From Flaccisagitta enflata (Eukaryota), in contig OZ231126.1 in assembly GCA_965153355.1 (NCBI GenBank), forward strand, positions 21,514,001 through 21,578,000: a stretch of 64,000 bases of DNA. The letters are read 5' to 3'. Each line of letters starts with the position of its first letter. Within the stretch, counting starts at the first letter, position 1. The notes beneath the pieces were generated by a model. That model was not told where the DNA came from, ran no database searches, and saw nothing but the letters and a program-made list of their open reading frames with translations. A program made the position numbers and the translations under genes. Below, piece after piece: positions 27,668 to 56,837 of the stretch.

Positions 27668-27762
<95 letters not shown>

Positions 27763-29699: not shown

Positions 29700-30235
29700 C
29701 ACCGCCGCCGATTCTGTTACCACCATCGCTTCTGTTGTCACCACTGCCTCTGTTGCCACCACTGCCACTGTTACAACCACTGCCTCTGTTTTCACCACTG
29801 TCTCTGTTGCCACCAGTGCCTCTCTTGCCACCACTGCCTCTGTTGCCATCCTCGCCAGCGCCGCCGCCGCCTAGGCCTCCGCCTCGGCCAACGTCCAGGA
29901 GTCCCAAGTATCATTTTTGAGCTATTACCATCCAAACTCAAAAGCCACCGTCACCTCTGTTGCCGTCTCTGTGCCCACTGACGCCACCGCCGCCCCTTCT
30001 CCCCCTTTGCCCAGGAGTCCCAAGCATCATTTTGGAGCTGTTACCATCCAAACTCCAAAGCCACCGCTACCTCTGTTGCCTCTGCCTGTACTATCTCGAT
30101 TGCCGTCTCTGTGGCCACCGCCGCCACCACCACCGCCGCCACCGCCGCCGCCCCTTCTCCGCCTTCCCCCAGGAGTCCCAAGCATCATTTTCGAACAGTT
30201 ACCATCCAAACTCCAAAGCCACGTGCAAAATCCAC
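29700..30235. repeat. 18-bp (CCACTGCCTCTGTTGCCA)n array plus three spaced copies of AGGAGTCCCAAGCATCATTTTCGAGCTGTTACCATCCAAACTC; homolog at ~54540-55100
   Basis: Directly visible in both segment copies. Confidence 0.85.
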
Positions 30236-30474
30236 GTTAGTGGGAGCGGAAGATTAAGAGAGGAAAAGAGAGACAGTGACGCCCTTTTTACGGTCCCTTT
30301 CTTCGCTTTACATCCTTCCGTTTGTTAAAGTGGACATTTTCATGGAAGATAAGGAAAAATATTTTCTTTCTTTCCAATTTGATGAACCGGGTTTTCACAC
30401 CATCATTCAAGATTGTTTTGATTAGTTTGATGTTTGCCTAATCGACAAGGGATTTGATAAGTAAGATGACCAGT

Positions 30475-30825
30475 TACGCCGATTGCATCCCGGGACTTTG
30501 CTGAATCGCTCCTGTGTGCCCCCTTCGCAATGTGACACTCACGATTTTATTTCAAACAAGCCAATGCGCAGCTTTTTACCTTGATGGGAACCTTTTTTAG
30601 GCTCAATTTGAAACTAACAAAGAAAATAAAAGGATTTTCTTAAGGGGATTCTTAAGGGGATTTTTTCCCATTGATTTCAATGTAAACTTCAAACGGGCCC
30701 TTAAAAAGGTTCCCATCAAGCTAGAAAGCTGCGCATTGGCTCGTTTGAAATAAAATTGCAAGTGTCATTTTATGAAGGGGGCACATAAGAGCGATTCAGC
30801 AAAGTCCCGGGAAACAATCGGCGTA
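30475..30825. mobile_element. Almost fully palindromic MITE with 8-bp TSD; shared with copy B (56021-56362)
   Basis: TACGCCGATTGCATCCCGGGACTTTGCTGAATCGCTC ... GAGCGATTCAGCAAAGTCCCGGGAAACAATCGGCGTA; ATGACCAG on both sides. Confidence 0.9.
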
Positions 30826-31137
30826 ATGACCAGATGGACTCATCAATGCTCCTAAAAGGTTTTGGGCGCATCAATCGGTCGTTAGCTCTTATACCATCCT
30901 CTATTTTTGTCTTACCTTTCTTGTCTTCTCCTTGTCTTTTCCTTGTGTTTTTCTTGTCTTTTCCTTGTCTTTTCCTTGTGTTTTCTTTGTCTTTTTCCCC
31001 CTGCTAGTCTTCGTCTGCTCTCATCTCTCTCGCTTCCGGTGGTGACTTTAAGTTTAACGACATTCTAAATCTTTTCTCCACTCTTCATTGCCCGAGTTTA
31101 TCTACCGCTACTCACTTTGCACTTGCACTCTCTCCTT

Positions 31138-31203
<66 letters not shown>

Positions 31204-31245
31204 TCTCTCTCTCTCTCATCTTAATCTTCGCAAAGGGAGCTGAGA

Positions 31246-31318
<73 letters not shown>

Positions 31319-31664
31319 AGAGAGAGGAAGCGACAGTATAGTGATGAAAGAAGTGAGAGTAGAAAAGCTCACCTTTCCTTTCGCTTTTCGTCTGACAATT
31401 TTTTCCTCTCGTCTCTTCTTGGCTCTTTTTTTCCTTTCCTTATTTTGCTCTTCACTGTTGCTAGAAACGATGTTTTTTTTTTTGCCTAACATTAGCTTGC
31501 CAATATTAGCTCAAGTTTCTTTTCCCGTGATTTGTTCCGTCCTTTTCCCGTCTATTCCGCCTTCCTCTGGCTTCTTCTTTTTTTTTGCGTGCAAGGTCGA
31601 GAGTTGAGTCAAGCGTGCTTTCTTGCGCGCCTTTGATGCGAGCTTTGAATGAAAGAGAAACCGC

Positions 31665-32040
31665 GACCGACCTTCGTGCAAGAAATGGGCGACCTTCGTG
31701 TGCCTGAGCCAGACTAGGGCGACCTTCATGTGCCTTAGCCTGACTAGGGCGACCTTCGTTTGCCTTAGCCTAACTAGGGCGACCTTCGTTTGCCGGAGCC
31801 GGACTAGGGCGACCTTCATGCCTATGGCTATGCCTGACTAGGGTGATCTACATGTTTGACTGTGGCGACATTCAGAAATGGATGACCATTGTGTGCCTGA
31901 GCCAGACTAGGGCGATCTTCTTGTGCCAGAGCCTGACTAGGACGACCCTCGTGTGCCTTAGCCTGACTACGGCGACCTTTGTTTGCCTAAGCTTGATTAC
32001 GGCGACCTTCATGCCTATGCCTGACTCGGGCGACCTACGT
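31665..32040. repeat. 30-bp minisatellite GACTAGGGCGACCTTCGTGTGCCTGAGCCT; longer array in copy B (~57225-57765)
   Basis: Head-to-tail units without spacers. Confidence 0.93.
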
Positions 32041-32117
32041 GTTTTACTGGGACGACATTCATAAAGGCCTTCGGGCCTTAAAATACGAGTTTGCCTGATA
32101 TGACCTATACACTTGCT

Positions 32118-32869
32118 CAGCGGCGTAGGAGACCTGGATTTTTTGGGACTTCCACCCTCCAACTAGTGTCCGACAAATTTGGTGTCCCAACAGAAAAATG
32201 ACATAGTTTTTGCTTTGAAATAGCAAGAAATAGTTATTAGTATGATACTCTTGTTTTGTTTGAGATCTTAGATAAGTGGGATTGAGCCTGATTACACCTG
32301 GTAAGGGAGAACATAACTTTTTTTACTCTTAGCTAGTCCACAGCTTGATATCTGTTTTTTTTTCTTTTACCCAATTTGCTCCCCTACATCCCTCTTCTTA
32401 GGCAATTAAAGCCTGAAAACCACTGAATTTTGATTGCTTTATAAATTGTATTTTTATCTTTAGACCTTTTATGATAATTATAGCATTGACTGAAATATGT
32501 AAAAAAGAAGATTGGTTCTTGCACCTTTGATTTTGACTGTATGAGTATAGGTAATCAGAATTTGGAGAATGCAAATACATAACCTTGGTGAGTATCTCAT
32601 GACATGTCAATTTCTACCATACATGTAAATATACTATTCAGTGTGTCTTCTTTTTTACTTTCTTTCTTTCTTTCTTTCTTCTTTTTGCTGTCTGTCTCAG
32701 TCTGTCTGTCCGTTTGTCTGTCTGTCTCTTCCTCTCTCTGACTGTCTCTCTTTGTCTCTCTCTCTCTCTCTCTCTTTCTTTTTCCTTTCTTTTTCTTCCT
32801 TTCTTCCTTGGTGTCCCGACAACAGGGACTTCCATGGAAGTCCCGGAAGTCCCTCCTCCTACGCCGCTG
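32118..32869. mobile_element. hAT-type non-autonomous element, copy-A specific
   Basis: TIR CAGCGGCGTAGGAG / CTCCTACGCCGCTG; 8-bp TSD CACTTGCT; single target (TACTTGCC) at ~57933. Confidence 0.93.
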
Positions 32870-33297
32870 CACTTGCTAATGACGACCTTTGGGCTTGACT
32901 ATGTTTATGGCAGCTATTGTAGCTGACTTGGCCGTGACCGACATTTCTGAAATTTCTTCGGGATTCAGCAAGCAGTGAATCAAATTTCTTCGGAATGATA
33001 AATGTACTTCATAGCAGAAATTTCTTTTTATTACAAAACAGTTTTCTGCTGTGGACTCAAAAGTAAGTCCTAATGTAGAATGGGAGATAATTCATCTTAA
33101 ATTTTATGTCTCATAAACTTCGAAATTTAATCTTTTATATTTTCAATGGATCAACTAAATCTAGATCTAACCAATATCCAACCTATATTTCAAAGTTTCC
33201 TCTTCCATCTAACACCTGAGGCAAAAGATAGGCAGAAGAGAGAATCAAGCGGAATGATTGAAGAGCCGCCAAACTGCTTTTCCTCCCTTTTCATATA

Positions 33298-33656
33298 CCG
33301 TATTTTCTCTAATTAGCGCCCCGGGCGCTTTTGAAATTGAAAAATGACATTGTCATTTTACCCTCCAATTAGCACCCCCTTTTGATATAAACATACATTG
33401 TTATCTAACATTTTTTACCATGAATACTACTTGAAATATCAGAATTATAAGATCAAGTACAATGAAGTGATATTGAGATGATTTTTTTTGCCTATTTTCA
33501 ATGAAAGCACTGAAAAAGCACTGAAAAAGCATTGAAAAAAATCAAAATCTTTGACAATTTGCCTTTTCTTCTTCCCATTTATCAACAATCTAGAGAAGAA
33601 AAAAGAGGGGGGGGGGGCGTTAATTGGAGGGGGGGCGATAAATGGAGAAAATACGG
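33298..33656. mobile_element. pogo-like MITE, TA TSD, copy-A specific
   Basis: TA-CCGTATTTTCTC ... GAGAAAATACGG-TA; empty site TTCATATAACAAAT at ~58353. Confidence 0.92.
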
Positions 33657-33734
33657 TAACAAATAGAGAGAGAATGAGAGAGAGAATGTCTCCGTTAGAG
33701 ACTGTGGTGGGAATATGTGTGAAAAAGTGTGAGA

Positions 33735-33837
<103 letters not shown>

Positions 33838-33848
33838 AGTGAGTGTGT

Positions 33849-33984
<136 letters not shown>

Positions 33985-34018
33985 TGAATGAATGACAGCA
34001 ACGAACAGGGAAGAGATG

Positions 34019-34660
34019 GGGGAACCATTTTAGGCCGAATGTTGGACTAGTTAAAGCTGAAACCACTTTAGTCAGAATTCAAACTTGAGTGGAATGAAGC
34101 AGGATATCCCTCATTTTTATTTTTAAATAGAATGTTTTTTCTGGGGGATTTTTAAAGACTGGATTATCTTATTTATAAAAAAAGTTGATTCATTATTTGT
34201 TTACACTGTTTAGCTTCATCATCATTTGGACACCATTTTCTATCAATTCTATAGAAAAAATTATTGAAATTCTTTTTAAGGATATTAAAATCTATTAAGA
34301 AAAATAGTCTAGAATTTAAAAAAAAATCTATATCTTTAATTTCCTGCTTTGATATTTCTAGAAATTAAACAAAATAAATGATTATTTGAAAAAACTCAAA
34401 GATATAAATTTTTGCAATTTTGATCATAAGATTTACAAAAATTGACAATGATAAATTGTTTTAAAAGATAATATGAAAAAAAATGAAAAATGATGCAAAT
34501 AAAATATCAATCAGGGCCCAAGAAAACTTTGTTTTTGAAGTTCACTCAAAAACCACCTTAATTACAATGAGCAGTGAAATTTGCAACCACTCTAGTCCGA
34601 TTCTGCTTTGAGTGGTTGGGAGCATTTTCAGATGAGGATTCGGCCTTGAGTGTCCTCCTC
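34019..34660. mobile_element. Mutator/MULE-like non-autonomous element, 9-bp TSD, copy-A specific
   Basis: GAAGAGATG duplicated (34010-34018, 34661-34669); imperfect G-start TIRs sharing AGGCCGAAT/ATTCGGCCT; single target at ~58786. Confidence 0.85.
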
Positions 34661-34829
34661 GAAGAGATGTAGTGATGGAGAGACAGAGGTCGATTAAGAG
34701 AGACAGAGACAGAAAAAGAAAAAGAACGGGAAAAGAAGCGCAGTGGACTCGAAGAAAAATGGAATGGAGAAGCAAATCAACGCAAAGGTTGACCGAGAAA
34801 AGCAGATGATGGCGGAAGACTGGTTAGAT

Positions 34830-35045
34830 GATGGTGGAGGATGGGGCAAGTGATGGTGGAGGATGGGGCAAGTGAGGGTGGAGGATGGGGCAAGTGAGGG
34901 TGGAGGATGGGGCAAGTAATGGTGGAGGATGGGGCAAGTGATGATGGAGGATCGGGCAGGTGAGGGAGGAAGATGGGACAAGTGATGGTGGAGGATGGGG
35001 CAGGTGACGGTTGAAGTTGGGGCAGGTGAGGGTGGAGGATGGGGG
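34830..35045. repeat. ~22-bp G-rich minisatellite (GATGGTGGAGGATGGGGCAAGT)n; homolog at ~58955-59110
   Basis: Directly visible. Confidence 0.9.
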
Positions 35046-35850
35046 GGAAAATGGGAAAATATTATTGGTGGTGGAAAGGGACAAAATAAAGTAATGAACA
35101 AAAATCAGAAAAGAAAATTGTTTGACACTTAGGTTAAGCTTTTAAGCGGCCTTACCATGTAAAGCCTTATGAAGTTGAAGGGTTACATTCGAAATAACTA
35201 ACCAGGCTGATTATTATCTTTCTTTTTTTCTTTTTTTTTAAGCATCATTCAAGTTGTGAATTGCGTTATCGGCGTAAATTGTGTTGCAATAGGAAGGTGA
35301 GGGACGGTTTTGTAGTTTTCAAATTGAATTAAAGAAAAAAATGAATCTCATCTGGAGTGAAGGCCATTATCGTTCTATCTAGTTATGAATTTGACATGTA
35401 TTCAGGCGTTCAAACATCAATCTTCTTGATACATGAAGGTGAGTGAAAAGGAAAAAATATTGTATTTGTCGAAATGAGTTGGAGCGAAAAACAAATGTCT
35501 TTGGATAAGATAGTTAGGTATTCAAACTAACGCTATTTCATGCAATATGTTATAATGCACGTCATGAGCGCTACAATGAAGTTCAAGGACGATTTTGAAA
35601 AGTAATCAACAGAGTGAGCTTTGAATGCAAATTGAAAAAATTCACCCATGAGATTGACAAGGGCGCTCGAATCGCGTTGCATAGAATCATTTTGATTGAT
35701 AAGAGTTGTTTATAGATTTTCATTTTTTAGTCAATAATTTCCTCAAAAAAGATATTAGTTTTACAACATAACACGTAATCTTCAAGTTGAACGGAAGTTG
35801 AGGTGAGGAGGATGCTAAAGACGACGGTCAAAAGATGACGATAGACTAAA

Positions 35851-36055
35851 GGTCTGAGAGATGAGGCATCATTCCACATGCTGGCCATTGACCGAGATCG
35901 CCTCCTGCTCTTCCTCTCCCTCCTCTTCCTCCTCCTCTCCCTCCTCCCCCTGCTTAGTGCTCACTCTCTATTTATGAGTCTACTGCGGGTGACCGGAACT
36001 CCCTGTCGCCGCCATTTTACCATCACTCCTTCTGTTTACTCACTTTGACTCTCTC
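35851..36055. promoter_or_regulatory. Candidate conserved cis-regulatory element
   Basis: Appears identical to 59975-60178 by eye while flanks diverge; contains CGCCATTTT (YY1/Pho-type), CCGGAA (ETS-type) and TTTATGA (posterior Hox/Cdx-type), next to a (CT)n tract. Confidence 0.35.
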
Positions 36056-36067
36056 TCTCTCTCTCTC

Positions 36068-36108
<41 letters not shown>

Positions 36109-36259
36109 CTTCAGCCATTCTAACGGCGAGCCTTGTTTTGACGCGAATTTACTTTATTCTCCCCTTCTTCACCTCATCAATCCTCATGCTCTTTTATTCG
36201 TATATTCCTTCTCTGCTTTTCTTCTTTCCTTTCTTCTTCTCTTCCTTCCTTTCTTCTTT

Positions 36260-36447
36260 TTTAGTCGCGTGCACGCGACTCTACAACCCGCTTTGTCCGT
36301 CCGTCGGTTGGTCGGTTTGTCACACTTTACTTTTTTCATGATTTTATTTCTTTGACCTCACTGCTCCTGCCCAAATGGTCTGGTGACCTCAAATATGGCC
36401 CCTGGCTACCTGCACATGACTTCGGTAGCTGTGTATCCGGCCTTGTT
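36260..36447 (+). mobile_element. HINE family 1, shared with copy B (60451-60642)
   Basis: TTTAGTCGCGTGCACGCGACT...GTGTATCCGGCCTTGTT in both copies. Confidence 0.88.
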
Positions 36448-36592
36448 TTTTCTCTTTCCATATGTTCCTCCTAAACTTCCGCCTCTTTCTTTTTTCTTTT
36501 ATCTTTTTCATGTGTTGACCTCCTCCATCATTTCCACCCCCGCTTTGACATTTATGTAGTCGGTTGTTGATGTTGTTGTTGTTGTTGTTATT

Positions 36593-36677
<85 letters not shown>

Positions 36678-40644: not shown

Positions 40645-40810
40645 AACAAGGCCGGATACACGGCCAATACCAGTTGCGGACGGATGGGCAGGGGCGGAAA
40701 TGCGCGTTTTCACACTTTCAAGCTCGATCATCACGGACCGATGGACCAACGGACGGACCGACGGACGGACAGACAAAACCTCCTATAGAGTCGCTTGTCC
40801 GCGACAAAAA
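40645..40810 (-). mobile_element. HINE family 1
   Basis: AACAAGGCCGGATACACGGC...(GGAC)n...GTCGCTTGTCCGCGAC-AAAAA. Confidence 0.85.
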
Positions 40811-41007
40811 ACATCTTTGAATTCGTAGCAAGCTAGGATGTTATCGAATTCTAAAAATAACGTGCCTCAGTAAAGTTCCTGGATTGCGAAAGTGAAAGTA
40901 AGAAAGGACTGTGAAAATTACTCATCGTCGCAATGCTCAGCTGAAAACCAAACTCCCATTTTTTTTATGTTCGCAAAAGAACTCTTGGGTCAAGTTTGAT
41001 TCAAATA

Positions 41008-41429
41008 CACTCTTTTTTTTTATAAGAACGTCATTTTTTTTCAAAGGCTTGATGTTCTTATTTTCAAGGCCAAATAAAGCCTTCAACGTTTTTAAAGTGT
41101 TCTTAATTTTCAATACTATATAAACTACAGGAAACCTTATATTATACTATTATTCAATTACACTAAATACAATTCTATTAAATACTGTTAAAAAACACCA
41201 ATTATTAAAGTCTGAGGATATTTTCATGATGTTTATTTAAAAATTATAAAATGTCATCTTAGTTACACTAAAATTCAAGTATTTTCCTAATGTTCATCAA
41301 ATAATATTGTAAGCAGAATTTTTTTCTCAAGATTTGAAGCCTTTGTATGTTCTTAAGATGTTCTTAATTTTGGGGCCATATGAAGCCTTGATGTTCTTAT
41401 AAACTAGGTTCTTATAAAAAAAAAGAGTG
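41008..41429. mobile_element. TA-TSD MITE
   Basis: TA-CACTCTTTTTTTTTATAAGAAC ... GTTCTTATAAAAAAAAAGAGTG-TA. Confidence 0.9.
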
Positions 41430-41484
41430 TATTATTTCCAAAGGGATCATTTGTTTAGAGCGTGCCGAAACCATCACCGTAAAA

Positions 41485-42039
41485 ATGTGTTGCCGACAAT
41501 GCCACGGCCCTTTCCCGAGTCTTAAGGCCGGACAGGTCATCATGAACGGCCTCATTCAACTTTTCTCAACTCTCATCGCCGTCATCTGTATCGTCGTCAT
41601 CCTGAGTTGCTTTACCTTCCCACCTCTTCAAGTCATGGGCTTGTCCTTTATCACCGTCGGCTTCAGCGTCTCGTTTTTCATCGGCGGCATTCTGATGGTG
41701 TTGGCCGGTGCCAAAGGGAGTTATTGCTGCGCCGTCGCCGCCCTCGTCTTCGCCGTCTTTAACTTTTTCTTTGCCGTTTACAACTTCTTTTTCTTCTTTT
41801 GGGCTATGCGGACGCTTCCTTTAGACGAAGACTGCTCCGAATCCGGTTACGCGAAGTTGGTGTTTCTGGTCGCCGTGGTGAACTTGGCGACTTTGGCGCA
41901 GCTACTCTCCGTAGTTTGGGCTTTACCGCTCGTTTCTAGAGCCATTTACTCCAGATATCGCGGTGATGGTCGGGACGGTGACGAAGAAACCCATCGTGAT
42001 GTTCACTCACGTGACAAATGGCTCCTCCGATACTTTTGA
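41485..42039 (+). CDS. Four-transmembrane protein, MS4A/CD20-like (184 aa to first stop)
   Basis: AAAA-ATG start and complex coding-like composition; four hydrophobic segments (GLIQLFSTLIAVICIVVIL; VGFSVSFFIGGILMVLAG; CAVAALVFAVFNFFFAVY; LVFLVAVVNLATLAQLLSVVW) with the G-x-I-Q TM1 pattern, short TM2-TM3 loop and loop Cys reminiscent of MS4A proteins. Family call is by eye. Confidence 0.65.
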   Translation: MCCRQCHGPFPSLKAGQVIMNGLIQLFSTLIAVICIVVILSCFTFPPLQVMGLSFITVGFSVSFFIGGILMVLAGAKGSYCCAVAALVFAVFNFFFAVYNFFFFFWAMRTLPLDEDCSESGYAKLVFLVAVVNLATLAQLLSVVWALPLVSRAIYSRYRGDGRDGDEETHRDVHSRDKWLLRYF

Positions 42040-43108
42040 ATGCTTCAATTAGCAACGACGATCGTGTCCATTGTCAGTAACATCGTAATCCTCTTTATCG
42101 TCGAAGAGGGAGTTCGTAGTGGACTTAACGATCGAGGCGATCTCCATAAACACAAAATTGGAGACGTAATTAAACAAAGAAATAAAGAAACAAAGAAACA
42201 AAAAACAAAAAACGAAGAAACATAGAAACAAAGAAAAAAAAACAAAGAAAAAAAAAAAGAATCAAAGAATTACAGAATTAAAGAAATACGGAGGGGGTAA
42301 CAGAACCAAAGAGAATCAGAATTTATGAAAACTAAAGTATGAAAAGATATCCTGCGCGCATCCAATTGGGAAAGTAAGAGCACCATTAAATGTATAATTT
42401 GTATATCTTTAGTATGATTCGGTATCAAGAAATGTCTTAATTTACGCCCAGCGGTGCTGAGAAAAAAAAGAGCAATACTTAGTATTCTCTGTTCTTCCGA
42501 CCTTTCCTTGCCATACTAGTTACCTCGGATTCCGCGCGTCGAAATTCGGCGAAAATTCGTCTCTTATTTCCTTTTCGCTTCTCAACACGCTCCAACTTGT
42601 TTTGACTCCGTGGAAAATCGCCGATTCTGCCGTGGCCATCAACGATCGGTACTCCATGGCCGTGATGGATTTAATCGTTAAGTCACCTTTTGAACACATC
42701 TACTAACTCGCCAAACACGGGTGCCGCTTCGAACCGGCGTTGGTCATCTTCCGCTCATTCATCATCGTCACCGCCGTCATTCATTTCCTCGCCAAAATTT
42801 GGGGAATCGCCGCCTCCATCATCGTCATTCATCGCGACAACGCCTGCAATTACGGACGAGGATGTTGCTGTTACGGCGATGCTTGCTGCTGCAATCCAGT
42901 TTGTTGTTGCGGCGTTGGCTAGTGCTGCAGTTGTGTTGAGGAAGAGGGAGAGGAGGAAAGACGACGAGGACGTGGACGAGGACGCTTTGATGATGACGCC
43001 GATGTTCGATTTTTCGTCGTGAAGGCGGCGACGGCATCGGGGGAAGTGGTTGAATTGATCCCGGCAGACAAAAATGATTTGGTATCTAACTTTATCCCCG
43101 CCTATTAA
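42040..43108 (+). pseudogene. Second 4-TM MS4A-like domain in frame with the upstream CDS; inferred intron 42166-42451; in-frame stops at 42458, 42704 and 42920
   Basis: MLQLATTIVSIVSNIVIL resembles TM1. After a GTAATT...CCCAG splice the frame reads QYLVFSVL..SYLGFRASK..SLISFSLLNTLQLVL..GCRFEPALVIFRSFIIVTAVIHFLAKIWGIAASIIVI..CCCYGDACCCNPVCCC..FIPAY-stop. Confidence 0.55.
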
Positions 43109-43213
43109 GAGTCGCTGCCAGCAAGGGTGTAGCAATGAATTTGCTTGAGTACTCGAAAGGTATTCGACATGTGTCTAAAATTGACCAGAAATGAGGTTCG
43201 CTGAATCGTTTTT

Positions 43214-43377
43214 TTTAGTCGCGGACGAGCGACTCTATAAGAGGCTTTGTCCGTCCGTCCGTCCGTCCGTCCGTCGGTTGGTCCGTTGATGAGCGCGAGT
43301 CGAAAAGTGGAAAAACCAGCGTTTCCGCTCCTGCCCACCCTTCCGCGACTGGTATTGGCCGTGTATCCGGCCTTGTT
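43214..43377 (+). mobile_element. HINE family 1
   Basis: TTTAGTCGCGGACGAGCGACT...(GTCC)n...GGCCGTGTATCCGGCCTTGTT. Confidence 0.87.
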
Positions 43378-45734: not shown

Positions 45735-45744
45735 NNNNNNNNNN
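45735..45744. other. Assembly gap (10 N)
   Basis: N run directly preceded by GATC. Confidence 1.
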
Positions 45745-47485
45745 GTGTCTGCTGGTCCAATCCCCACATTAGTAGAAGGTGCGTGCTAGACATTTATAGA
45801 GTCAGTAAAGCGCTAAGTACTAGGTGTCTGCTGGATCCATCCCCAACACATAGTAATGGAGGTGTCTGCTGGGTGTCTGCTGGTCCAATCCCACATGGTA
45901 AAGGTGCTGCTAATTTGTTCATAGTCAATCCTAACGTTAAGTATTTAGTGTCTGCTGGGTATCTGCTGGACCCATCCCCAAATTAGTGGTAGGTGTCTGC
46001 TATGGTGTACCACTCAAGCCAATCCCCAAATTAGTAGAAGGTGCCTGCTAGATATTCATAGTCCGTACACGTTAACTATTTGGTGTCTGCTGGTGTCTGG
46101 ATCCATCCCAACTTAATGAGTAGGTGTCTGCTGGGTGTCTGCTGGATGCATCCCCCAACAATGGCTGAAGTGTCACTGGGTGTCTGCTGGTACAATCCCC
46201 ATTGGTATAAGAAGGTGCCTGCTAGACATTTATAGAGTCAGTACAGCGCTAAGTACTAGGTGTCTGATGGGTGTCTGCTGGATCCATCATAGTAGTAGGT
46301 GTCTGCTGGGTGTCTGCTGGTCCAATCCCCACATTAGTAGAAGGTGCCTGCCTAGACATTGCGTCATAGTCAGTACAACGTTAAGTATTTGGTGTCTGCT
46401 GGGTGTCTGTTGGACCCATCCCCAAATTAGTAGTAGGTGTCTGCTGGAGCTCTGCTGGACCCATCCCCAAATTAGTAGAGAAGGGTGCCTGCTGAACATT
46501 CCATAGTCAGTACTAACGTTAAGTATTTGGTGTCTGCTGGGTGTCTGCTGGATCCATCCCCAGCAAAGTAGTAGGTGTCTGCTGGGTGTCTGCTGATCCA
46601 ATCCCCACATTAGTAGTAGGTGTCTGCTAGGTGTCTGCTGGTCCAATCCCCACATTAGTAGAAGGTGCCTGCTAGACATTATTGAAGTCCCAGTACTGGC
46701 GCTAAATTACTAAATTGTCTGCTCAGGTGTCTGCTGGATCTGTCTACAATATAGTAGTAGGTGTCTGCTAGGTGTCTGCAGATTTAATCCCCACATTAGT
46801 AGAAGGTGCCTGCTAGACATTCATAGTCAGTACAACGTTAAGTATTTGGTGTCACTGGGTGTCTGCTGGACCCATCCCCAACTTAGCAGTAAGTGTCTGC
46901 TGGGTGTCTGCTGAGTCCATCCCCAACTTAGTAGAAGGTGCTGCTAGACATTCATAATCAAAAGTCCAGTACAACGTTAAGTATTTGGTGTCTGCTGAGT
47001 TCTCTGCTGGATCCATCCCCAACTTAGTAGTAGGTGTCTGCTGGGTGTCTGCTGGATCCATCCCCAACTTAGTAGTAGGTGTCTGCTGGTTGTCTGCTGG
47101 TCCAATCCCCACATTAGTAGAAGGTGCCTGCTAGACATTTATAGAGTCAGTACAGCGCTAAGTACTAGGTGTCTGATGGGTGTCTGCTTGATCCATCCCC
47201 AACATAGTAGTAGGTGTCTGCTGGGTGTCTGCTAGTCCATTCCCCACATTAGTAGAAGGTGCCTGCTAGACATTCATAGTCAGTACAACGTTAAGTATTT
47301 GGTGTCTGCTGGGTGCCTGCTGGATCCATCCCCAACTTAGTCGTAGGTGTCTGCTAGGTGTCTGCTGGATTCATCCCCATGGCTCTTATTTTTGGTGTCT
47401 GCTGAGGTGCCTGCTAGATCCATCCCCAAAAGAAGGAAAATTTTAGTGGAGGTGTCTGATGAGTCCAAGTGTCTGCTAGATCACA
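45745..47485. repeat. Composite higher-order satellite built on GGTGTCTGCTG, with ~43-bp and ~85-90-bp subunits
   Basis: AGTAGTAGGTGTCTGCTGGGTGTCTGCTGGATCCATCCCCAAC subunits alternate with AGTAGAAGGTGCCTGCTAGACATT..AGTCAGTACA.CG.TAAGTA subunits. Confidence 0.95.
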
Positions 47486-47918
47486 GGTACCGTCGTTAAC
47501 GTCGTCAGCTTCTTCTATTGAGCCGGCTGAATGTTTTAAAGAGCAAATCAAAATCATACGCGCTGAGAGTAAATCACGATATAATATACTTCCAACTCGA
47601 CGTTCCGCGGTCGCGTCAGCACCACCATCAGCGTCAACGCAAGCGCAACCGTCAGCGCCGCCGTCAGCGCCGCCGTCACCCTTTACGTCCCCGCCAGCGT
47701 TACCTTCAGTGCCACCGTCAGCGCCACCGTCAGCGCCGCCGTCAGCGCCACCGTCACCCTTTACGTCCCCGCCAGCGTTACTTTCAGTGCCACCGTCAGC
47801 GCCACCGTCAGCGCCACCGTCAGCGCCACCGTCGGCCCAGCGCACCTGAAATCGCAACCGCATGTTTCTCTAGGTTCTTCAACTTAAAAGCCTCATATCG
47901 ATTGACTGAAAGGTCACG

Positions 47919-48008
<90 letters not shown>

Positions 48009-48216
48009 AGCATCGTCATTTCTACTCTAGGCTGATATTTCTGCCATTTGACTCATTGCCGACGCGGCGTCTAGGTGGAATATGGTGGGCGAGATTTCGA
48101 TAGTACCTGCAAAATTAAATCGTTAAAGATCGCCATTCCATCAAAATCTATCGGTGTAATAGCTCACGAAATGGGAAGTCGCAAAATGATCTAAAATATC
48201 TGCCATTCTCTCCATA

Positions 48217-48402
48217 ACAAGGCCGGATACACGGCCATACCAGTTGCGGACGGGTGCGCAGGGGCGGAAATGCGCGGTTTTACACTTTTCAACTCGTGCA
48301 CACCGACGGACGGACGGACGGACCGACGGACAGACGGACGGACGGACGGACCGACGGACGGATGGACAAAGGCTCTTACAGAGTTGCGTGTCCGCAACTA
48401 AA
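48217..48402 (-). mobile_element. HINE family 1, copy-B specific
   Basis: Absent at the A-run of copy A (~23207); sub-TIR AGTTGCGGAC and terminal AGTTGCGTGTCCGCAACT. Confidence 0.9.
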
Positions 48403-48562
48403 AACAAATACAATGAATCTTTTTCGTTGCACTCTAATGATCACATGCGCATATCGAAGCGGATGATTTGAACAACCTATTTCCATTTTGTTTCTACTGC
48501 TTCAATATGCAAATGAATCTTAAATGTTAAAATTTCTTTCTTAAAATCTGAGTTTTCTTTGC

Positions 48563-48662
<100 letters not shown>

Positions 48663-48788
48663 GTCAGTCAGTCTTTGTTTTGGGTAGCGAATTATGAACA
48701 AAATAGTATCATGATCATGAAACGACCTCATCATCCTTCTCGAAGCAACCGAGAGGAAAAATGCAACAGCCGGAAAATTCTTTAGATA

Positions 48789-49635
48789 CCAGTAATGGCG
48801 GCTGTCGCCGTGAGGAAAAAAGTCGTATGCGTTGTTCACTTTTCACTAAACTTTTTTTTTCAGTCATTGCAACTTTTTATTTGTTAGATCAAATTAAGAG
48901 CAATTGTATATAGTGGTTGCACTGAAAATCAGAGAAAAATAGGACTGAGCCAAATGAGCTGGATGAGCTAAAATATTCAGAATCACTAAACTGCACAACC
49001 AGCTATGCTTACTGAGATGTTTTTTTGTATTTGCATGCTTAAATCAAAACATTTATTTGTTTATCGGTTTTGAAATCAGAAAAAAAATGCAAGCTAAATG
49101 AGCTAAATAAGCTAGAATATTTAAAAACACCCTCACAGATGAGCAGCTCTGCTCACTGACATGCTTTCTTGTATTTTCTTGCTTAAACATCTATCAATAT
49201 ATTTGCTTATTTCTTGCATTTGAAATCAGAGAAAAAAAGACTGAGCTAAGTGAGCTAAATGAGCTAAAAGGCTCAAAATCACCCTCACACATGAGCAGCT
49301 ATGCTCATAAATATGTTCTTTTGTATTTGCATGCTTAACCAAACTTAGATACACTCCTTTATTGATCCTACACAAAATCATAAAAAATCTAAAAAAATTC
49401 AATTTGAATTTTTCGTAAATAAATCTTTAAAAATTCATAACGCAAAAAATATTTGTCCCAGAGACTTCTGCTTAGCGCCAAATGAAAGAGAATTATCAAA
49501 TTTACTCACCCTATCAATTTCATTGGAGGCCTCAATCGCCCTAAAGAGTTCCGAAACTTTCTCATAAGAAAATGAAAACCCTGTTTCTCTCGAATATGTC
49601 AAAAAGTCGAAGACTGACTTCGACTTTTTTCCCGA
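48789..49635 (-). mobile_element. Non-autonomous Helitron (5'-TC ... hairpin-CTGG-3'), copy-B specific
   Basis: Minus strand begins TCGGGAAAAAAGTCG and ends GGCGACAGCCGCC-ATTA-CTGG; inserted between A and T with no TSD; empty site TTTAGATA/TCACACGAGG at ~23553-23570. Confidence 0.9.
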
Positions 49636-52460
49636 TCACACGAGGAAAAAAAATTGAATGTGAGTGAATTCTTTTATAGTGTGTATGCGACTCCACATAG
49701 TCGGTCGTGCGGTCGGTCAGTCTGATCGTTTATGGGCTTGTCACACATTGTATTTTCATTGGAGTGTGATTTTACCTCAATGTCCCTGCCTAAATGCTAA
49801 CATGACTAACCAACATCGTTTTCATGGTCGCTCTGCTCGCGATTGGAGAATGAAGAAGCCGTTTATCCGGTCTTGTTTTCTTTTTCTCATGTTGATACTG
49901 TATGTGCGCGTGTTGGATGATATCCGGACGAGAGGGTATCTCCGCAAGGGCATGAAGCCCATAATATAACAGAATAGAAGCGTTGGCAAGAGCGACCGAG
50001 CGTCTGGGGGTCTCGCGTAACGACCCTCGTAAAGAAACAAACTCTTTTTGGGGGATCCCTGAAAATGTATCTTTTCAAATTCAAGACGGGCTCAACACTT
50101 CTTTGTACTCGCGGACGCTGATGAGCCCGACTTGAGATTTGGGATGAGGATTAAGAGTTTTAGGGACGACCACCAGGCCTACCACAGTACCACATGTATC
50201 CCTCTATCCTTTTAAGACCTAACTCTTTCCGTTCATCCCTTCACTCGTTATCGCCTCTTTTGCTATTCTTCATTCTATTAACAAGATTTTTTTTACTTTT
50301 TTTTTACTTGTTGCAGATTTGAACGCTTCGTAAAAATCGACAAAGGAAAAAGAGTGTGAATAAAATCTTCGCTTCGCCCGGACGAGAGTTTCTGCGCCGA
50401 GACCGACCCACGAAAAAAAAAAAAAAAAAACACCGATGGATTTGATTACGTCGCGTCGTTTTATTCTATTTTCTTCAACTTCATCAACATATTCATAAAA
50501 GTATCTGATACTCGTGTACAACTACGTCCAGTGAAATCCAACATAATCAACATCGATGAGGATTGGAAGTTACGTGTAAAGAAAAGAAGAAATGTCATCA
50601 GCAATGAAATGTGATTGTGCCAGATTAACGTTTTTTGCTTGGGCTGTGTTATGCCGATTCACGTCCGCTCCGTTACGGAGTTAAGCAATTACAAAATGTC
50701 ACTTAGAATTCGGCTTACATTGTGATCGACCGTCGTTGCAATCGAGTTCGTTGATATCATGATACCATGTGATACCATGTGACATGTGATACCATGTGAT
50801 AGTGTTTGTCCGTCACTTGTCGACCAACGGTTCATTCGCAACATCCGTAATCTAATCACTAATCAACGATACAATTACATCACCTGTAAATGGAACAACG
50901 ATCTTTGATCGCTTGCTGCTATTTTATCGATCAAACAGTTTGGCGGCCACCGACATATGTGCTTCGCCCGCTTCCTGACCAACGATACAATCTCTCGCGT
51001 CTCCCTCTCGTCGTCTAACAATACATTGTCATTGACAACCATCCCCGACCAAAGTGCATCGTCAAGTTTACACCTCATGATCAATTCGAATCGACCGACG
51101 AGAGAAAACGCCTCAATCGACCGCATGGGGAACAATCACTCTTTGGATTACTTTACGCACTCATCTACTCAAGCAAACGCCGATCGACTGTCAACAAAAT
51201 TGCAAAACGTCATTCGAAATCAACGAGGCAGCTTCCTATTCCTCGATAACGTCGTCGTTGTCGTATGGATCAATGACGAACGAATTTACACGATCTCTTC
51301 CTCGCTTCATCGCCTGCTCACTGCTCAGTAGGTACGTTAGGTTGGGAAAGTGGGTGAATGGGGGGGGGGGGCAGGGGAAGGGGAGGGGGAACAAGGCAAG
51401 ATCAGAAAATGATAGCAGTCCCTTGTTCTGGATTTTTAATTGCAACTAAAAGATCTATCGTATTCTTTCATCGAGTCGTATATGTGAGCCTCGATGTTGC
51501 AAAAGTGTAGGTATTTTATCGATTTCAGTTCCCTGTCCGTCCACGAATCAGCCAATCTCCATCCACTCCGTCATTTAAACCAACGAGCATTTAGGAATGT
51601 GAGACGCAGCAGTTTCCTTCAGTCTATTCTCGAAAAAGTTGTGTTGTATTTAGAACCAAAAGAAAAAAAAGAAAGAAATAAAAAAGAAGAGAAAAACTGT
51701 GGTGGTCCTCCACTTTTTTCTGTCTGATTTTTTTTTCTCTCTGGACATTTTTAAGGTCTTTTGTTTTTCTTCTCTCTGTCGAATTTGCGTCTGTTGAGGC
51801 GGAAAAAAGGAAGCTTGTCAAACAATGCCTGTCGTGTTGACTGTCGATTTTTGTTGTTGTTGTTGTTGCCGTTGTTGTTGTTGTTGTTGTTGTTGTTTTT
51901 AGTGGTTGTGGTGGTGGTGGCGGTGGTGGTGGTGGTGGTGGTGGTGGTGGTGGTGGTGGTGGTGGTGGTGGTGGTGATGGTGGTGGTGGTGGTGGTGGTG
52001 GTGGTGGTGGTGGTGATGATAGTGGTGGTGAGGGGAAGGATGTTGTTGGTGGTGAAGATGGTGACTGGTGTTGATGGTGGTGGTGTTGATGTTGTGGTCG
52101 CAACTGATGTGATTGCGCCCGATAACAACGCTTTCTCATCGCTTTATCTTTGCTTCGTTTACAAGCTTCATTGCTCCCAACTAAATCCCTCCACTCAATC
52201 TCCGTTCAACTCTCCAAGGGCTTTGCTTCTATTTGCATACACTTTTTTTCTTCTTTTTTTTATTGTGTTAGTCGAATAGTCGGTCGGAAAGTACATTGAC
52301 GTTTTCTTCAAGTATTTCTAAATCATTGCATTGTAACTTTCTATTCATTTTTTCCTCTTCTTCAATTATTTCTACATCATTGTAACTTTCTATTCATTTT
52401 TCCTCTTCTTCTTCTTCTTCTTCTTCTTCTTCTTCTTCTTCTTCTTCTTCTTCTTCTTCT

Positions 52461-52494
<34 letters not shown>

Positions 52495-52856
52495 TTTCTT
52501 CTTCTTCTTCTTCTTCCTGTATTGCTTCTTCTTCTTCTCCTTCTTCCTCTACATCACAATCACATATCTTTTATTTCTCAGGTTTATTTCTACGGTTTAT
52601 TTCTTTATCTTTTTAGATTTTATTTCCATTCTTTGACGAAAATAACAGATAACAGATTCCAACATTTTGATTTTTATCAGTCTGTTTTTGCCTCTCGATT
52701 GAATTTGATCTTTTTTTTTCCTTCGCACAATTCGTTTTTCTGCTTCCTCTCTCTTCTCTTGTTTTTCCGTCTTAGTCTCAAGCGTGTTTTGAATCGTGTT
52801 ATGATGGATTGATGAAGTGACAAAGGGACTCCAGGAAACTAGGCACAAAGAATAGG

Positions 52857-52916
<60 letters not shown>

Positions 52917-53172
52917 CAGAAAGATAGAGAGACCGACTGCGATTGTTTGGGATGATATGTGATATAGTTCTGGAAAATTTAAATGGACATCTAAAATGGG
53001 CGAGTTACTTTCGGCTGCAAGTTGCAGTGCAACGCATTGCAAATGTCCAACATGTCAAGTACGTCTCTAAATCTTATTTTTCGAAAGATGGACAGAGGGA
53101 TGGACCCATGGACCAACGGACCAACGGACCGTCGCACAAATGGATAATGCCTCTCACACTGAACGCATCCAA

Positions 53173-53350
53173 AACAAGGCCAGATACACGGCTACCCCAG
53201 TCGCGTGCGGTTGGGCAGGAGCTTTTTTTGAGGTCACCCTATCATTTGGGCAGGAGCAGTGGGGCCAAGTATCGCGAAAAAAAGTGTGACGGACGGACGA
53301 ACCGACGGACCGACAAAGCGGGGTGTAGCGTCGCGTAGCATGCGACTAAA
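53173..53350 (-). mobile_element. HINE family 1, copy-B specific
   Basis: Empty site is the A-run in GCATCCAAAAAAATCCC at ~27965-27980. Confidence 0.9.
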
Positions 53351-54350
53351 AATCCCAATCAGTTTGTTCCCCTGAGACGCTGAGGGATTTTGAACCGCGT
53401 TTCCAGAAGGGGGAATTTGATAGATGACGGATGGGAATTGTTTCCCTTTTGTTACGCAACGAAAATTGACAGTTGATTTGAAATTTACAGGTTTTTTTAG
53501 TATTATTTGAACACACAATCTTTTATCATAAATCGATTGAAAATATAACAATTTATGGTATTCTATGCAATACAGTCTTCTATAGCGCACCCGCTAATAA
53601 GGTATCCCTGAATAAAAGGAATGATTTCTTTTTTTTTTTTGTTTCATGGTGAGGTTCACTTGTATCCACAGCAAACTCGACATGCATACTGCAACCTGAC
53701 ACAAATCAGTCGTTTGAAACACGATACTTTAACAACGCACATCCCATACGCAGTTATCTAATGTTATACTATTACTTATACGCTGCGCAATGTCTTAGAA
53801 CTCCATCTAACTTACAGGCCGATCGAAACTGACAGCTGTACCAGAGAACGCATCAACACAAAAACATGAGACAAGATACTCAACGCATGTCATAACCGCG
53901 GAGAAAAAAAAAAGGAAGAAAAGAAAGGGAGAATTCCCAACTGGATTTATACTTTATATATACAAAGTGACTTCGGCGCGGTCGAGGTTGATGGAATTTG
54001 ATTCCGTTGGGGAAAGGAAGGGAAAAATAGAGAAGAAGAAGAAGGAGAAGAAGAAGAAGAAGAAGAAGAAGAAGAAGAAGAAGAAGAAGAAGAAGAAGAA
54101 GAAGAAGAAGAAGAAGAAAAAGAAAAAGAAAAAGAAAAAGAAAAAGAAAAAGAAAAAGAAAAAGAAGAAGATGTAGAAGAAGCAGAAGCAGAAGAGGTTG
54201 AGGAAAAGGAAGAGGGAGAAGGAGAAGGAAAAGGAGAAGGAGAAGGAGAAGATGCAGAAGAAGATGTAGAAGAAGCAGAAGCAGAAGCAGAAGAAGAAGA
54301 AAAAGAAGAGGAAGAAAAAGAAGAAGAAGAAGAAGAAGAAGAAGAAGAAG

Positions 54351-54382
<32 letters not shown>

Positions 54383-55130
54383 GAAGAAGAAGAAGAAGAA
54401 GAAGAAGAAGAAGAAGAAGAAGAAGAAGAAGATGCAGAAGAAGAAGCAGCTGCAGAGGGAAGCCAAGTTGATGATGAAAGTACGGCCAACAAACAACAGA
54501 GTTGAGCTGCCGACGCCGACGCCTTCGAGGCCGTCAGCGCCACCGCCGCCGATTCTGTTGCCACCATCGCTTCTGTTGTCACCACTGCCTCTGTTGCCAC
54601 CACTGCCACTGTTGCAACCACTGCTTCTGTTTTCACCACTGCCTCTGTTTTCACCACTGCCTCTGTTGCCACCAGTGCCTCTGTTGCCATCGTCGCCAGT
54701 GCCGCCACCGCCTCAGCCTCCGCCTCGGCCAATGTCCAGGAGTCCCAAGTATCATTTTCGAGCTTTTACCATCCAAACTCAAAAGCCACCGTCACCTCTG
54801 TTGCCGCCTCTGTGGCCACTGACGTCACCGCCGCCCCTTCTCCGCCTTCATCCAAGAGTCCCAAGCATCATTTTCGAGTTGTTACCATCCAACTCCTAAG
54901 TCACCGCCACCTCTGTTGCCTCTGCCTGTACTATCTTGGTTTCCGTCTCTGTGGCCACCGCCACCACCACCAACACCATCACCGCCACCGCCACCGCCGC
55001 CACCGCCGCCACCAACGCCCCTCCTCCGCCCTCGCCCAGGAGTCCCAAGCATCATTTTCGAGCTGTTACCATCCAAACTCCAAAGCCACGTGCAAAATCC
55101 ACGTTAGCGAGAGCGGAAGATTAAGAGAGG

Positions 55131-55810: not shown

Positions 55811-56020
55811 AAGAGACAGTGACGCCCTTTTTACGGTCCCTTTCTTCTCTTTACGTCCTTCCGTTTGTTAAAGTGGACATTTTCATGGAAGATAAGAAAA
55901 AATATTTTCTTACTTTCCAATTTGATGAACCGGCTTTTCTTTCACACCATCATTCAAGATTGTTTTGATTAGTTTCATGGTTGCCTAATCGACAAGGGAT
56001 TTGATAAGTAAGTTGAGCAG

Positions 56021-56661: not shown

Positions 56662-56759
<98 letters not shown>

Positions 56760-56837
56760 TCTCTGCTCCCTTCCGTGTAATCAAATCTATCTTGATGCCA
56801 TCCCATACATCTTAATCTTCGCAAAGGGAGCTGAGAG

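What the first reader, a model, noticed from the sequence alone, without database searches (positions are those of the whole stretch)
41485..43108. Tandem double-tetraspan (8-TM) MS4A-like gene whose second half has four in-frame stops but no frameshift
Seen: the TGA ending the 184-aa ORF (42037-39) is followed directly by ATG. It sits where the first domain has Gly (NGLIQLFSTLIAVICIVVIL vs F*MLQLATTIVSIVSNIVIL), so GGA>TGA is plausible. Removing a GT..AG segment (42166-42451) joins phase 0 to a frame encoding TM2-TM4, a Cys-cluster tail (CCCYGDACCCNPVCCC) and a PAY C-terminus. That frame is broken only by TGA 42458, TAA 42704 and TAG 42920. Known: MS4A/CD20 proteins normally have a single 4-TM domain and oligomerise. 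Inference: either an ancestral fused dimer reverting to a single-domain gene, or a stop-restart (TGAATG) or readthrough arrangement. Decay is the simplest reading, but several nonsense changes with no frameshift is notable. The ORF track misses this architecture.
Basis: partly seen in the sequence, partly recalled or inferred. Interest (0 to 1): 0.7.

Follow-up and report, generated by a model that had tools for sequence, protein, structure and literature searches.

The report
Broken copy of double CD20-like gene
This is a disabled copy of a gene from an unnamed marine family whose proteins carry two CD20/MS4A-like four-helix membrane domains in one chain; only the first domain can still be translated, so it is mostly an ordinary young pseudogene.

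Summary
A search of 1.84 billion proteins found unnamed relatives of 366-512 aa that carry both halves in one open frame. A profile of ten relatives matches the window through TGA 42037 (144.9 bits) and again through TAA 42704 (96 bits).

- **Architecture:** the double four-helix architecture is real. The two halves of the family match each other (hhalign E 1.6e-5). The link to CD20/MS4A is remote but consistent.
- **TGA 42037:** it replaces a Trp invariant in 10 of 10 relatives, so the change was TGG>TGA, not GGA>TGA. A second version in the same organism's DNA has TGG there but carries its own TAG at codon 158.
- **Other lesions:** TAA 42704 is seen in independent DNA; TAG 42920 was not itemised. 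TGA 42458 is probably intronic. The best-scoring model uses acceptor 42483 and a 1-nt deletion, so "no frameshift" is not secure.
- **Expression:** no poly-A RNA reads lie on the gene.

Verdict: young pseudogene or domain loss in progress, not readthrough or stop-restart. First-domain differences are 9 synonymous to 1 non-synonymous, against 7:13 downstream.

The parts
41485..42036 (+). Open reading frame for the first CD20-like four-helix domain (184 codons; start MCC... as in relatives)
   Evidence: ORF. Four hydrophobic helices. phmmer hits down to E 3.1e-13. AlphaFold2 model pLDDT 79, pTM 0.69, four long helices. Foldseek top hits are Fc-epsilon-RI chain B and CD20.
42037..42039 (+). TGA nonsense codon at the position of an invariant Trp (W176 of P0001) that opens helix 1 of the second domain
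   Evidence: Alignment. An X1 DNA contig identical to the window covers it. The other contig has A>G at 42039, giving TGG, at depth 84.3 of 162.8.
42040..42165 (+). Rest of exon 1: helix 1 of the second domain and the following loop, in the same frame as ORF1
   Evidence: The profile alignment runs through the stop to profile position 221. tblastn with P0003 reaches 42156.
42166..42482 (+). Putative GT..AG intron holding an A-rich simple repeat. The acceptor is uncertain: 42451|42452 (reader), 42472|42473 or 42482|42483. TGA 42458-60 lies inside it under the last two.
   Evidence: Only 4 GT donors lie in 42100-42240, and 42165|42166 is the only one that fits the relatives. Model scores are 258.0, 249.8 and 243.1 bits. 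No RNA read covers it.
42483..42520 (+). Probable start of helix 2 of the second domain in frame 0 (YSLFFRPFLAIL), followed by a probable 1-nt deletion that shifts to frame 2
   Evidence: Best of 5388 models. It keeps invariant L217 and P221 with the right spacing. X1 contig 42482-42745 shows no indel here, so the lesion, if real, is also in that DNA. Favoured, not proven.
42521..43105 (+). Frame 2: YLGFRASKFGENSSLISF motif, helix 3', loop, helix 4', Cys-rich tail and C-terminus; broken by TAA 42704-06 and TAG 42920-22
   Evidence: Profile match 96.0 bits, E 3.6e-31. 13 of 13 invariant residues from G230 to L255 are kept. The tail after the TAG is only weakly similar to relatives (4-13 of 300 shuffles reach the score).
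42704..42706 (+). TAA nonsense codon in the variable loop between helices 3' and 4'
   Evidence: X1 contig 42482-42745 differs from the window only at 42641 and 42695, so the TAA is present in independent DNA.
42920..42922 (+). TAG nonsense codon in the Cys-rich tail
   Evidence: Not independently itemised: 35 difference rows were not shown, and the variant contig 42830-43013 has 15 unlisted differences.
43106..43108 (+). Natural stop codon TAA of the ancestral two-domain frame
41004..41433 (.). MITE-like element with 33-nt terminal inverted repeats, ending 52 nt upstream of the start codon
   Evidence: Arms 41004-41036 and 41401-41433 are 91% complementary. Word depth at 41364-41427 in X1 is about 1,975,000 against about 160 on the gene.
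40645..40811 (-). Copy of a dispersed SINE-like repeat of about 170 nt flanking the gene upstream
   Evidence: 83% identical to 43212-43377 in inverted orientation. Further copies at 24480, 27011, 48215, 59682 and elsewhere in the window.
43212..43377 (+). Copy of the same dispersed repeat about 100 nt downstream of the gene

Best explanation
The locus is a recently disabled copy of a gene from an unnamed family of a marine eukaryote, probably an animal. Family members are single chains with two tandem CD20/MS4A-like four-helix domains and a Cys-rich cytoplasmic tail.

In this copy a TGG>TGA change at the invariant Trp opening the second domain ends translation after 184 codons. Downstream, the second domain is an untranslated relic. 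It has since picked up TAA 42704, TAG 42920 and one further lesion at the start of helix 2'.

The TGA-ATG junction is ancestral W-M coding sequence, not a restart signal.

Shown: the homology of both halves, the positions of the stops, and the TGG variant. Inferred: the order of events, the splice sites, and the frameshift.

Whether the surviving first-domain ORF still makes a working four-helix protein is open. My odds are about 1 in 3 that it does and 2 in 3 that the whole locus is dead.
For: - Ten relatives of 366-512 aa are intact across both halves under the standard code.
- The family profile reads through the TGA (144.9 bits) and through the TAA (96.0 bits).
- The TGA aligns with a Trp invariant in 10 of 10 relatives.
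- DNA contigs of the same organism (run X1) hold two versions at depths 78.5 and 84.3. One is identical to the window. The other has TGG at 42037-39 but TAT>TAG at codon 158.
- TGA 42037, TGA 42458 and TAA 42704 all recur in X1 contigs, so they are not errors of this assembly.
- The second half keeps 15 of 17 family-invariant residues. Its profile score (118-131 bits) lies within or just under the family's leave-one-out range (120.7-202), so the inactivation is young.
- Differences between the two versions downstream of codon 157 are 7 synonymous to 13 non-synonymous, which looks neutral.
- No reads from a poly-A RNA run of the organism lie on 41492-43200, with about 6% of that run read.
Against: - In the first domain the two versions differ by 9 synonymous and 1 non-synonymous change. 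The ratio is about 0.04, and the binomial p against neutrality is 6e-5. Both versions keep the first 157 codons open. This fits continued selection on a stand-alone first domain rather than a fully dead locus.
- All lesions falling in the second half is only weak evidence either way. By my own estimate the chance is about 0.1-0.2 if lesions fall uniformly.
- TAG 42920 was not itemised in independent DNA.
- The state of the second version beyond 42111 is known only in part, because 35 difference rows were not shown.
- The frameshift rests on an 8-bit advantage among many more models tried.
- Absence of RNA reads in 6% of one run is weak evidence.
Confidence: 0.75

Rival explanations
1. Domain loss in progress. 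The second domain became dispensable, and the first domain survives as a working stand-alone four-helix CD20-like protein that would pair with itself, as CD20 does. The stops at codon 185 (window version) and codon 158 (other version) are independent, tolerated truncations.
For: - 9 synonymous to 1 non-synonymous difference in 41847-41957 against 7:13 downstream (Fisher p 0.0067). With the fixed differences included the counts are 10:2 against 7:17 (p 0.0039).
- Two different stops both lie behind helix 4.
- The ORF1 model is confident: pLDDT 79, pTM 0.69.
- The start codon and the N-terminal MCC are conserved with relatives.
Against: - The counts come from one 265-nt contig.
- The two versions are identical over 41446-41846 and then about 8% different. 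This mosaic suggests recombination or gene conversion, so the synonymous excess may predate the inactivation.
- 4 of 15 invariant residues of the first domain are replaced: R70G, A128T, V140P, I141L.
- Its profile score of 93.4 bits is below all ten relatives, which score 96.5-180.
- No poly-A RNA reads.
- No complete single-domain relative was found. The short hits are fragments, and the P0002 cluster ends in unrelated sequence.
Confidence: 0.3
2. The gene is intact and makes the eight-helix protein. On this reading the stops are assembly or sequencing errors, or belong to one null allele while the other allele is whole.
For: One version in X1 has TGG in place of the TGA.
Against: - That same contig has its own TAG at codon 158.
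- TGA 42037, TGA 42458 and TAA 42704 recur in independent contigs at depths 78-118.
- A marine metagenome contig is identical to the window over 41723-41975.
Confidence: 0.05
3. The stops are decoded. This could be programmed readthrough, termination-reinitiation at TGA-ATG, or a nuclear code in which stop codons also serve as sense codons (TGA as Trp).
For: - The TGA sits exactly at an invariant Trp.
- All three stop codons occur in a second half that is otherwise well preserved, with 15 of 17 invariants kept.
Against: - TGG>TGA and TAT>TAG are the expected one-step nonsense changes.
- Relatives are open under the standard code.
- ORF1 uses TGG for its three Trp residues and has no internal stop.
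- Reinitiation at 42040 would meet further stops.
- Downstream differences look neutral.
- No RNA was seen.
Confidence: 0.03

Closest known systems
CD20-like family (Pfam PF04103): MS4A1/CD20, MS4A2/Fc-epsilon-RI beta, TMEM176
   Same: - Four-helix membrane domain with a short first loop and a longer loop between helices 3 and 4.
- Relatives reach or approach the Pfam cut-off over the whole profile: P0009 34.8, P0019 27.0 and P0017 26.1 bits against 27.9.
- Foldseek's first five PDB hits for the ORF1 model are Fc-epsilon-RI chain B (4 entries) and CD20. That chain B is the beta, MS4A2, subunit is my recall, not a tool result.
   Different: - The window's own ORF1 gives no Pfam CD20 hit at E up to 10.
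- A profile of the family finds no MS4A chain among PDB sequences.
- Fold E-values are weak (0.015-0.5), and helical bundles match many things.
- The family has two domains per chain, a GFRxWRFGENSSL motif and a Cys-rich tail.
[quoted passage not shown] 2010, PMC2826416; abstract and passages read)
   Same: Two or more MS4A-like four-helix units are encoded in one polypeptide. The authors read this as support for dimers being the working unit.
   Different: - Those are vertebrate MS4A genes predicted from genomic clones.
- This family is only remotely related and is seen in unnamed marine sequence data.
- The same paper concluded that invertebrates lack MS4A-like genes.
Ordinary unprocessed pseudogene with premature stops
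   Same: An intron is retained. There are nonsense changes at one-step codons, a probable 1-nt deletion and neutral-looking substitutions downstream.
   Different: All visible lesions lie behind the first domain, which shows a synonymous excess between two versions.
Placozoan triple-tetraspan membrane proteins
   Same: Several CD20/sarcospan-like four-helix bundles fused in one chain in a non-vertebrate.
   Different: Different genome, with three modules and no sequence tie to CD20 reported. I did not compare the sequences.

Membership tests
CD20-like family (Pfam PF04103 / MS4A) | The protein itself scores at or above Pfam's gathering score (27.9 bits) | tested here: not met
   ORF1 and four pieces of the second half give no CD20 hit at E up to 10.
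CD20-like family (Pfam PF04103 / MS4A) | Homology by a chain of significant matches (window to relative to Pfam CD20) | tested here: met
   ORF1 matches P0009 at E 5.9e-05 in a 1.84-billion-protein search. P0009 scores 34.8 bits, E 2.2e-08, above the cut-off. P0019 scores 27.0, P0017 26.1, P0003 22.8 and P0018 14.8 bits, all below it. 11 of the 16 relatives scanned give no hit.
CD20-like family (Pfam PF04103 / MS4A) | Four transmembrane helices with a longer loop between helices 3 and 4 | tested here: met
   Hydropathy peaks at 22-40, 55-73, 80-98 and 126-144. AlphaFold2 helices at 15-42, 47-77, 80-110 and 119-160.
CD20-like family (Pfam PF04103 / MS4A) | Fold matches solved MS4A structures better than other four-helix membrane proteins | tested here: inconclusive
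   Foldseek ranks 1-5 are 8k7t_B, 8y81_B, 8yvu_B, 8ywa_B and 8vgn_G (CD20), but at E 0.015-0.32 and TM 0.47-0.61. On the 404-aa relative, VIA-align gives Z 13.0-14.0 to Fc-epsilon-RI chain B for both halves, amid generic helical bundles at Z 14-15.
Unnamed tandem double CD20-like family (alignment A2, 10 proteins) | First domain homologous | tested here: met
   phmmer E 3.1e-13 to 3.4e-06 against five full-length members. Profile score 144.9 bits. 11 of 15 invariant residues kept.
Unnamed tandem double CD20-like family (alignment A2, 10 proteins) | Second domain with N-W-x-x-Q, LWxxPVYLL, GFRxWRFGENSSL and HFxxSIWG motifs | tested here: met
   Profile score 96.0 bits, E 3.6e-31. 15 of 17 invariant residues kept. 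The Trp of N-W is a stop, and the Trp of GFRxW is Ser.
Unnamed tandem double CD20-like family (alignment A2, 10 proteins) | One uninterrupted reading frame across both domains | tested here: not met
   Stops at 42037, 42704 and 42920, plus either TGA 42458 or a probable frameshift.
Unnamed tandem double CD20-like family (alignment A2, 10 proteins) | The two halves are duplicates of one four-helix unit | tested here: met
   hhalign of the N-half against the C-half alignment gives probability 79%, E 1.6e-05 and 139 collinear columns. Within the window alone the similarity is not significant.
Programmed readthrough or termination-reinitiation | A single bypassed stop followed by an otherwise open, conserved frame | tested here: not met
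   At least two further stops lie downstream. Substitutions downstream look neutral.
Variant nuclear genetic code with stop codons as sense | In-frame stops at conserved sense positions in many genes of the organism | not testable with these tools
   No genome is held, and no other clear protein-coding ORF is in the window.

The most novel reading that the evidence does not exclude
A fused CD20-like pseudo-dimer caught reverting to a single four-helix gene. Two versions in one species are truncated independently, at codon 158 and codon 185. The first domain stays under strong purifying selection (ratio about 0.04), while the second domain, still 15 of 17 invariant residues intact, drifts. If true, this would be a natural experiment on whether a covalently fused MS4A-type dimer can be replaced by self-association of one half.
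Probability: 0.3. Interest if true: 0.55.

Novelty: new variant of a known kind. Interest (0 to 1): 0.35.

Why it matters
- **A new family.** The work exposes a family of two-domain CD20/MS4A-like membrane proteins that carries no name in any source searched. All 23 related sequences come from unnamed ENA or JGI records. It lies outside vertebrates, where a 2010 survey concluded such genes are absent (PMC2826416, passages read).
- **Support for dimers.** A covalent double domain supports the idea that dimers are the working unit of this fold.
- **The window's copy.** Taken alone it is an ordinary young pseudogene. It is only of wider interest if the first domain proves to be maintained alone.
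- **For annotation.** The 184-aa ORF should not be called an intact gene without noting that it is the front half of a broken two-domain gene.

Tried and rejected
- **Word-indexed protein search with ORF1:** no hit. The exhaustive search was needed.
- **Own genome:** not held, so no search for paralogues or code test was possible.
- **Earlier notes of this scan:** nothing by place or sequence.
- **JGI metagenome contigs:** the family profile found 216 pattern matches, none confirmed. A 20-nt exact stretch found 0 matches.
- **PDB sequences with the family profile:** only a chance hit at E 3.1.
- **Shorter relatives:** 3 hits, all fragments of the second half or tail, so there is no evidence for natural single-domain members.
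- **Self-pairing of ORF1 (complex prediction, 2 copies):** no answer, score 0.00, controls not run. This is not evidence either way.
- **Rfam and tRNA scans of the window:** nothing. The dispersed repeat is therefore not shown to be tRNA-derived.
- **Metatranscriptome contig ending at 42165 (run X8):** rejected as splice evidence, because the tool masks the repeat 42166-42269 and cuts alignments there.
- **Flanking inverted repeats as transposon ends for the gene:** rejected. They are copies of a dispersed repeat found at least 8 times in the window.
- **Literature:** three searches found no description of this family or of a broken tandem CD20-like gene. Only listings were seen, apart from the two papers read in passages.
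Full report
**Observation.**
- The ORF 41485-42039 encodes 184 aa.
- TGA 42037-39 abuts ATG 42040-42.
- GT lies at 42166 and AG at 42450-51, and that join is in phase.
- Frame 2 then carries TGA 42458, TAA 42704 and TAG 42920, the Cys cluster, and ...IPAY before TAA 43106.

The window is eukaryote-like. It is full of microsatellites and dispersed repeats, and this is its only clean protein-coding ORF. No genome is held for it.

**Is the second half real coding sequence?** Within the window alone the case is weak.
- ORF1 and the reconstructed second half share only an 18-aa helix match, which 26-35 of 500 shuffles reach.
- Pfam finds nothing in any piece.
- Hydropathy shows only two clear helices in the second half.
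- Region 42690-43022 is open in all three forward frames.

Relatives settle the question. The word-indexed search found nothing. An exhaustive phmmer search of 1.84 billion proteins gave 10 hits. Five of them (P0001 and P0003-P0006, 366-512 aa) carry an ORF1-like domain followed by a second part. That part holds the motifs N-W-x-x-Q..ST, LWCAPVYLL, GFRxWRFGENSSLISF and HFxxSIWG, plus a Cys-rich tail, and all of them recur in the window's second half. A profile search added five more full-length members.

All relatives come from unnamed ENA or JGI records on contigs of 1.2-2.8 kb. I take these to be transcripts; that is an inference.

A profile of the ten (alignment A2) matches the window in two pieces.
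- In frame 1 it matches from 41485 through the TGA into helix 1' (profile positions 2-221, 144.9 bits, E 5e-46).
- In frame 2 it matches about 42515-42895 through the TAA (positions 237-341, 96.0 bits, E 3.6e-31).

tblastn with the single proteins gives the same picture.

**Architecture and family.** The N halves and C halves of the family align collinearly with each other: hhalign probability 79%, E 1.6e-5, 139 columns. AlphaFold2 on P0001 gives eight long helices in two sets of four, at modest confidence (pLDDT 63.3, pTM 0.56). The double four-helix reading is therefore right.

The tie to CD20/MS4A is remote but consistent.
- Pfam CD20 scores P0009 at 34.8 bits, above the 27.9 cut-off. P0019 scores 27.0, P0017 26.1, P0003 22.8 and P0018 14.8 bits. 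The other 11 of 16 relatives scanned give no hit.
- The window's own ORF1 folds with pLDDT 79 and pTM 0.69 into four long helices.
- Foldseek's first five PDB hits for that model are four Fc-epsilon-RI chain B entries and CD20, at weak E-values of 0.015-0.32.
- VIA-align gives Z 13-14 to the same chains for both halves of P0001, but generic helical bundles score as high.
- ESM Atlas neighbours are CD20 clusters of echinoderms, chordates and cnidarians at 0.88. This is a lead only.

Tandem MS4A units in one gene are already in print for chicken, opossum and platypus (PMC2826416, passages read).

**The lesions.**
- **TGA 42037.** It aligns with a Trp that is invariant in 10 of 10 relatives. The following ATG matches the M, I or V after that Trp; P0003 reads N-W-M. 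The TGA-ATG junction is therefore ancestral coding sequence.
- **TAA 42704.** It lies in the variable loop between helices 3' and 4'.
- **TAG 42920.** It lies in the Cys-rich tail. Similarity to relatives beyond it is weak: 4, 10 and 13 of 300 shuffles reach the three best scores among nine relatives compared.
- **Start of helix 2'.** Profile positions 222-236 are missing from frame 2. I scored 5388 splice and frameshift models.
  - Best: donor 42165, acceptor 42483 and a 1-nt deletion somewhere in 42502-42520, at 258.0 bits. This model gives YSLFFRPFLAIL and keeps invariant L217 and P221 with the right spacing.
  - Best frameshift-free model: acceptor 42473, at 249.8 bits.
  - Far more frameshift models were tried, so an 8-bit lead is suggestive only. 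By eye, acceptor 42452 has the best pyrimidine tract.

In sum there are three firm stops and one model-dependent lesion. "No frameshift" cannot be claimed.

**Independent reads.** Four runs were laid.

*RNA.* In a poly-A RNA run of the same organism (about 6% of it read), 258 reads were laid. All lie only partly on the stretch, on the high-copy repeat at 41364-41431, and none on 41492-43200.

*DNA of the organism (run X1).*
- TGA 42037 is confirmed by a contig identical to the window, at depth 78.5.
- TGA 42458 is confirmed by the contig covering 42270-42511.
- TAA 42704 is confirmed by the contig covering 42482-42745, which has two differences elsewhere and no indel.
- A second version at depth 84.3 differs at 20 of 265 positions over 41847-42111.

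*The second version, translated.*
- It has TGG at 42037-39 but TAT>TAG at codon 158.
- Its differences in 41877-41952 are 9 synonymous to 1 non-synonymous.
- From 41958 to 42052 they are 2 synonymous to 4 non-synonymous, plus the two stop changes.
- A variant stretch at 42746-42825 shows 5 synonymous to 7 non-synonymous.

*Statistics with Nei-Gojobori site counts.*
- The ratios are about 0.04, 0.89 and 0.45 for the three regions.
- The synonymous excess in the first domain has binomial p 6e-5 against neutrality.
- First domain against everything downstream gives Fisher p 0.0067.

*Caveats.*
- The counts come from short contigs.
- 35 difference rows were not shown.
- The two versions are identical over 41446-41846. 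This mosaic suggests recombination or gene conversion, so the synonymous excess may predate the inactivation.

**How decayed is each half?**
- Against leave-one-out profiles, family members score 96.5-180 bits for the N domain and 120.7-202 bits for the C domain, with a C/N ratio of 0.82-1.54.
- The window scores 93.4 bits (N) and 117.9-131.3 bits (C), a ratio of 1.26-1.41.
- Invariant residues kept are 11 of 15 (N), 0 of 3 (linker) and 15 of 17 (C).

The second half is thus no more eroded than the first on the family's time-scale, so the inactivation is young. Three nonsense changes imply on the order of 10% neutral change (my estimate). That agrees with the roughly 10% difference between the two versions there.

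**Verdict.** The best reading (0.75) is a young pseudogenised copy of a two-domain CD20-like gene. Translation ends at a TGG>TGA change, and the second domain is an untranslated relic.

Whether the first-domain ORF still works alone is open.
- **For:** the synonymous excess and the two independent truncations behind helix 4.
- **Against:** no RNA, four lost invariant residues, the lowest N-domain score in the family, a MITE-like insertion 52 nt upstream of the ATG, and the mosaic pattern.
- **My odds:** about 0.3 that it works alone.

An intact eight-helix gene (0.05) and decoding of the stops (0.03) are unlikely.

Noticed in passing
window 41004-41433: MITE-like element with 33-nt terminal inverted repeats (91% complementary), ending 52 nt before the gene's ATG. 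Its right arm has word depth of about 2 million in the organism's DNA run against about 160 on the gene, so it is present in thousands of copies. RNA reads from other copies land on it.
   Followed up: partly
window 40645-40811 (-), 43212-43377 (+), also near 12906, 19741, 20839, 24480, 27011, 48215, 53172, 59682: Dispersed repeat of about 170 nt with a GTCC-repeat core; at least 8 copies in the window at 69-85% identity. No Rfam or tRNA match, so its class is unknown.
   Followed up: partly
window 22653-36641 and 47587-60830: Direct segmental duplication of about 13-14 kb at 82-95% identity. The gene lies in the 11-kb spacer between the two copies.
   Followed up: partly
window 9117-10027 and 10140-11065: Inverted duplication of about 0.9 kb at 88% identity.
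   Followed up: no
window 45735-45744 and 45745-47428: A run of 10 N (assembly gap), followed by about 1.7 kb of self-similar tandem repeats at 76-85% identity between shifted copies.
   Followed up: no
window 42997-43137 (run X3, marine metagenome): One low-depth contig (3.33) joins 42997 to 43137, skipping 139 bases that include the end of the frame and its natural stop. This is a possible deletion variant in the wild population.
   Followed up: no
proteins P0002, P0011-P0013 (unnamed ENA records): A cluster of 198-199-aa relatives has the first domain and then leaves the family sequence right after ...RSRTPNVD for an unrelated hydrophobic tail. This may be a retained intron in the linker of another species rather than a true single-domain form.
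   Followed up: partly
window 42690-43022: This stretch is open in all three forward frames and in one reverse frame (ORFs of 110, 72, 60 and 126 aa). It is a compositional effect that makes ORF-based frame calls unreliable here.
   Followed up: yes
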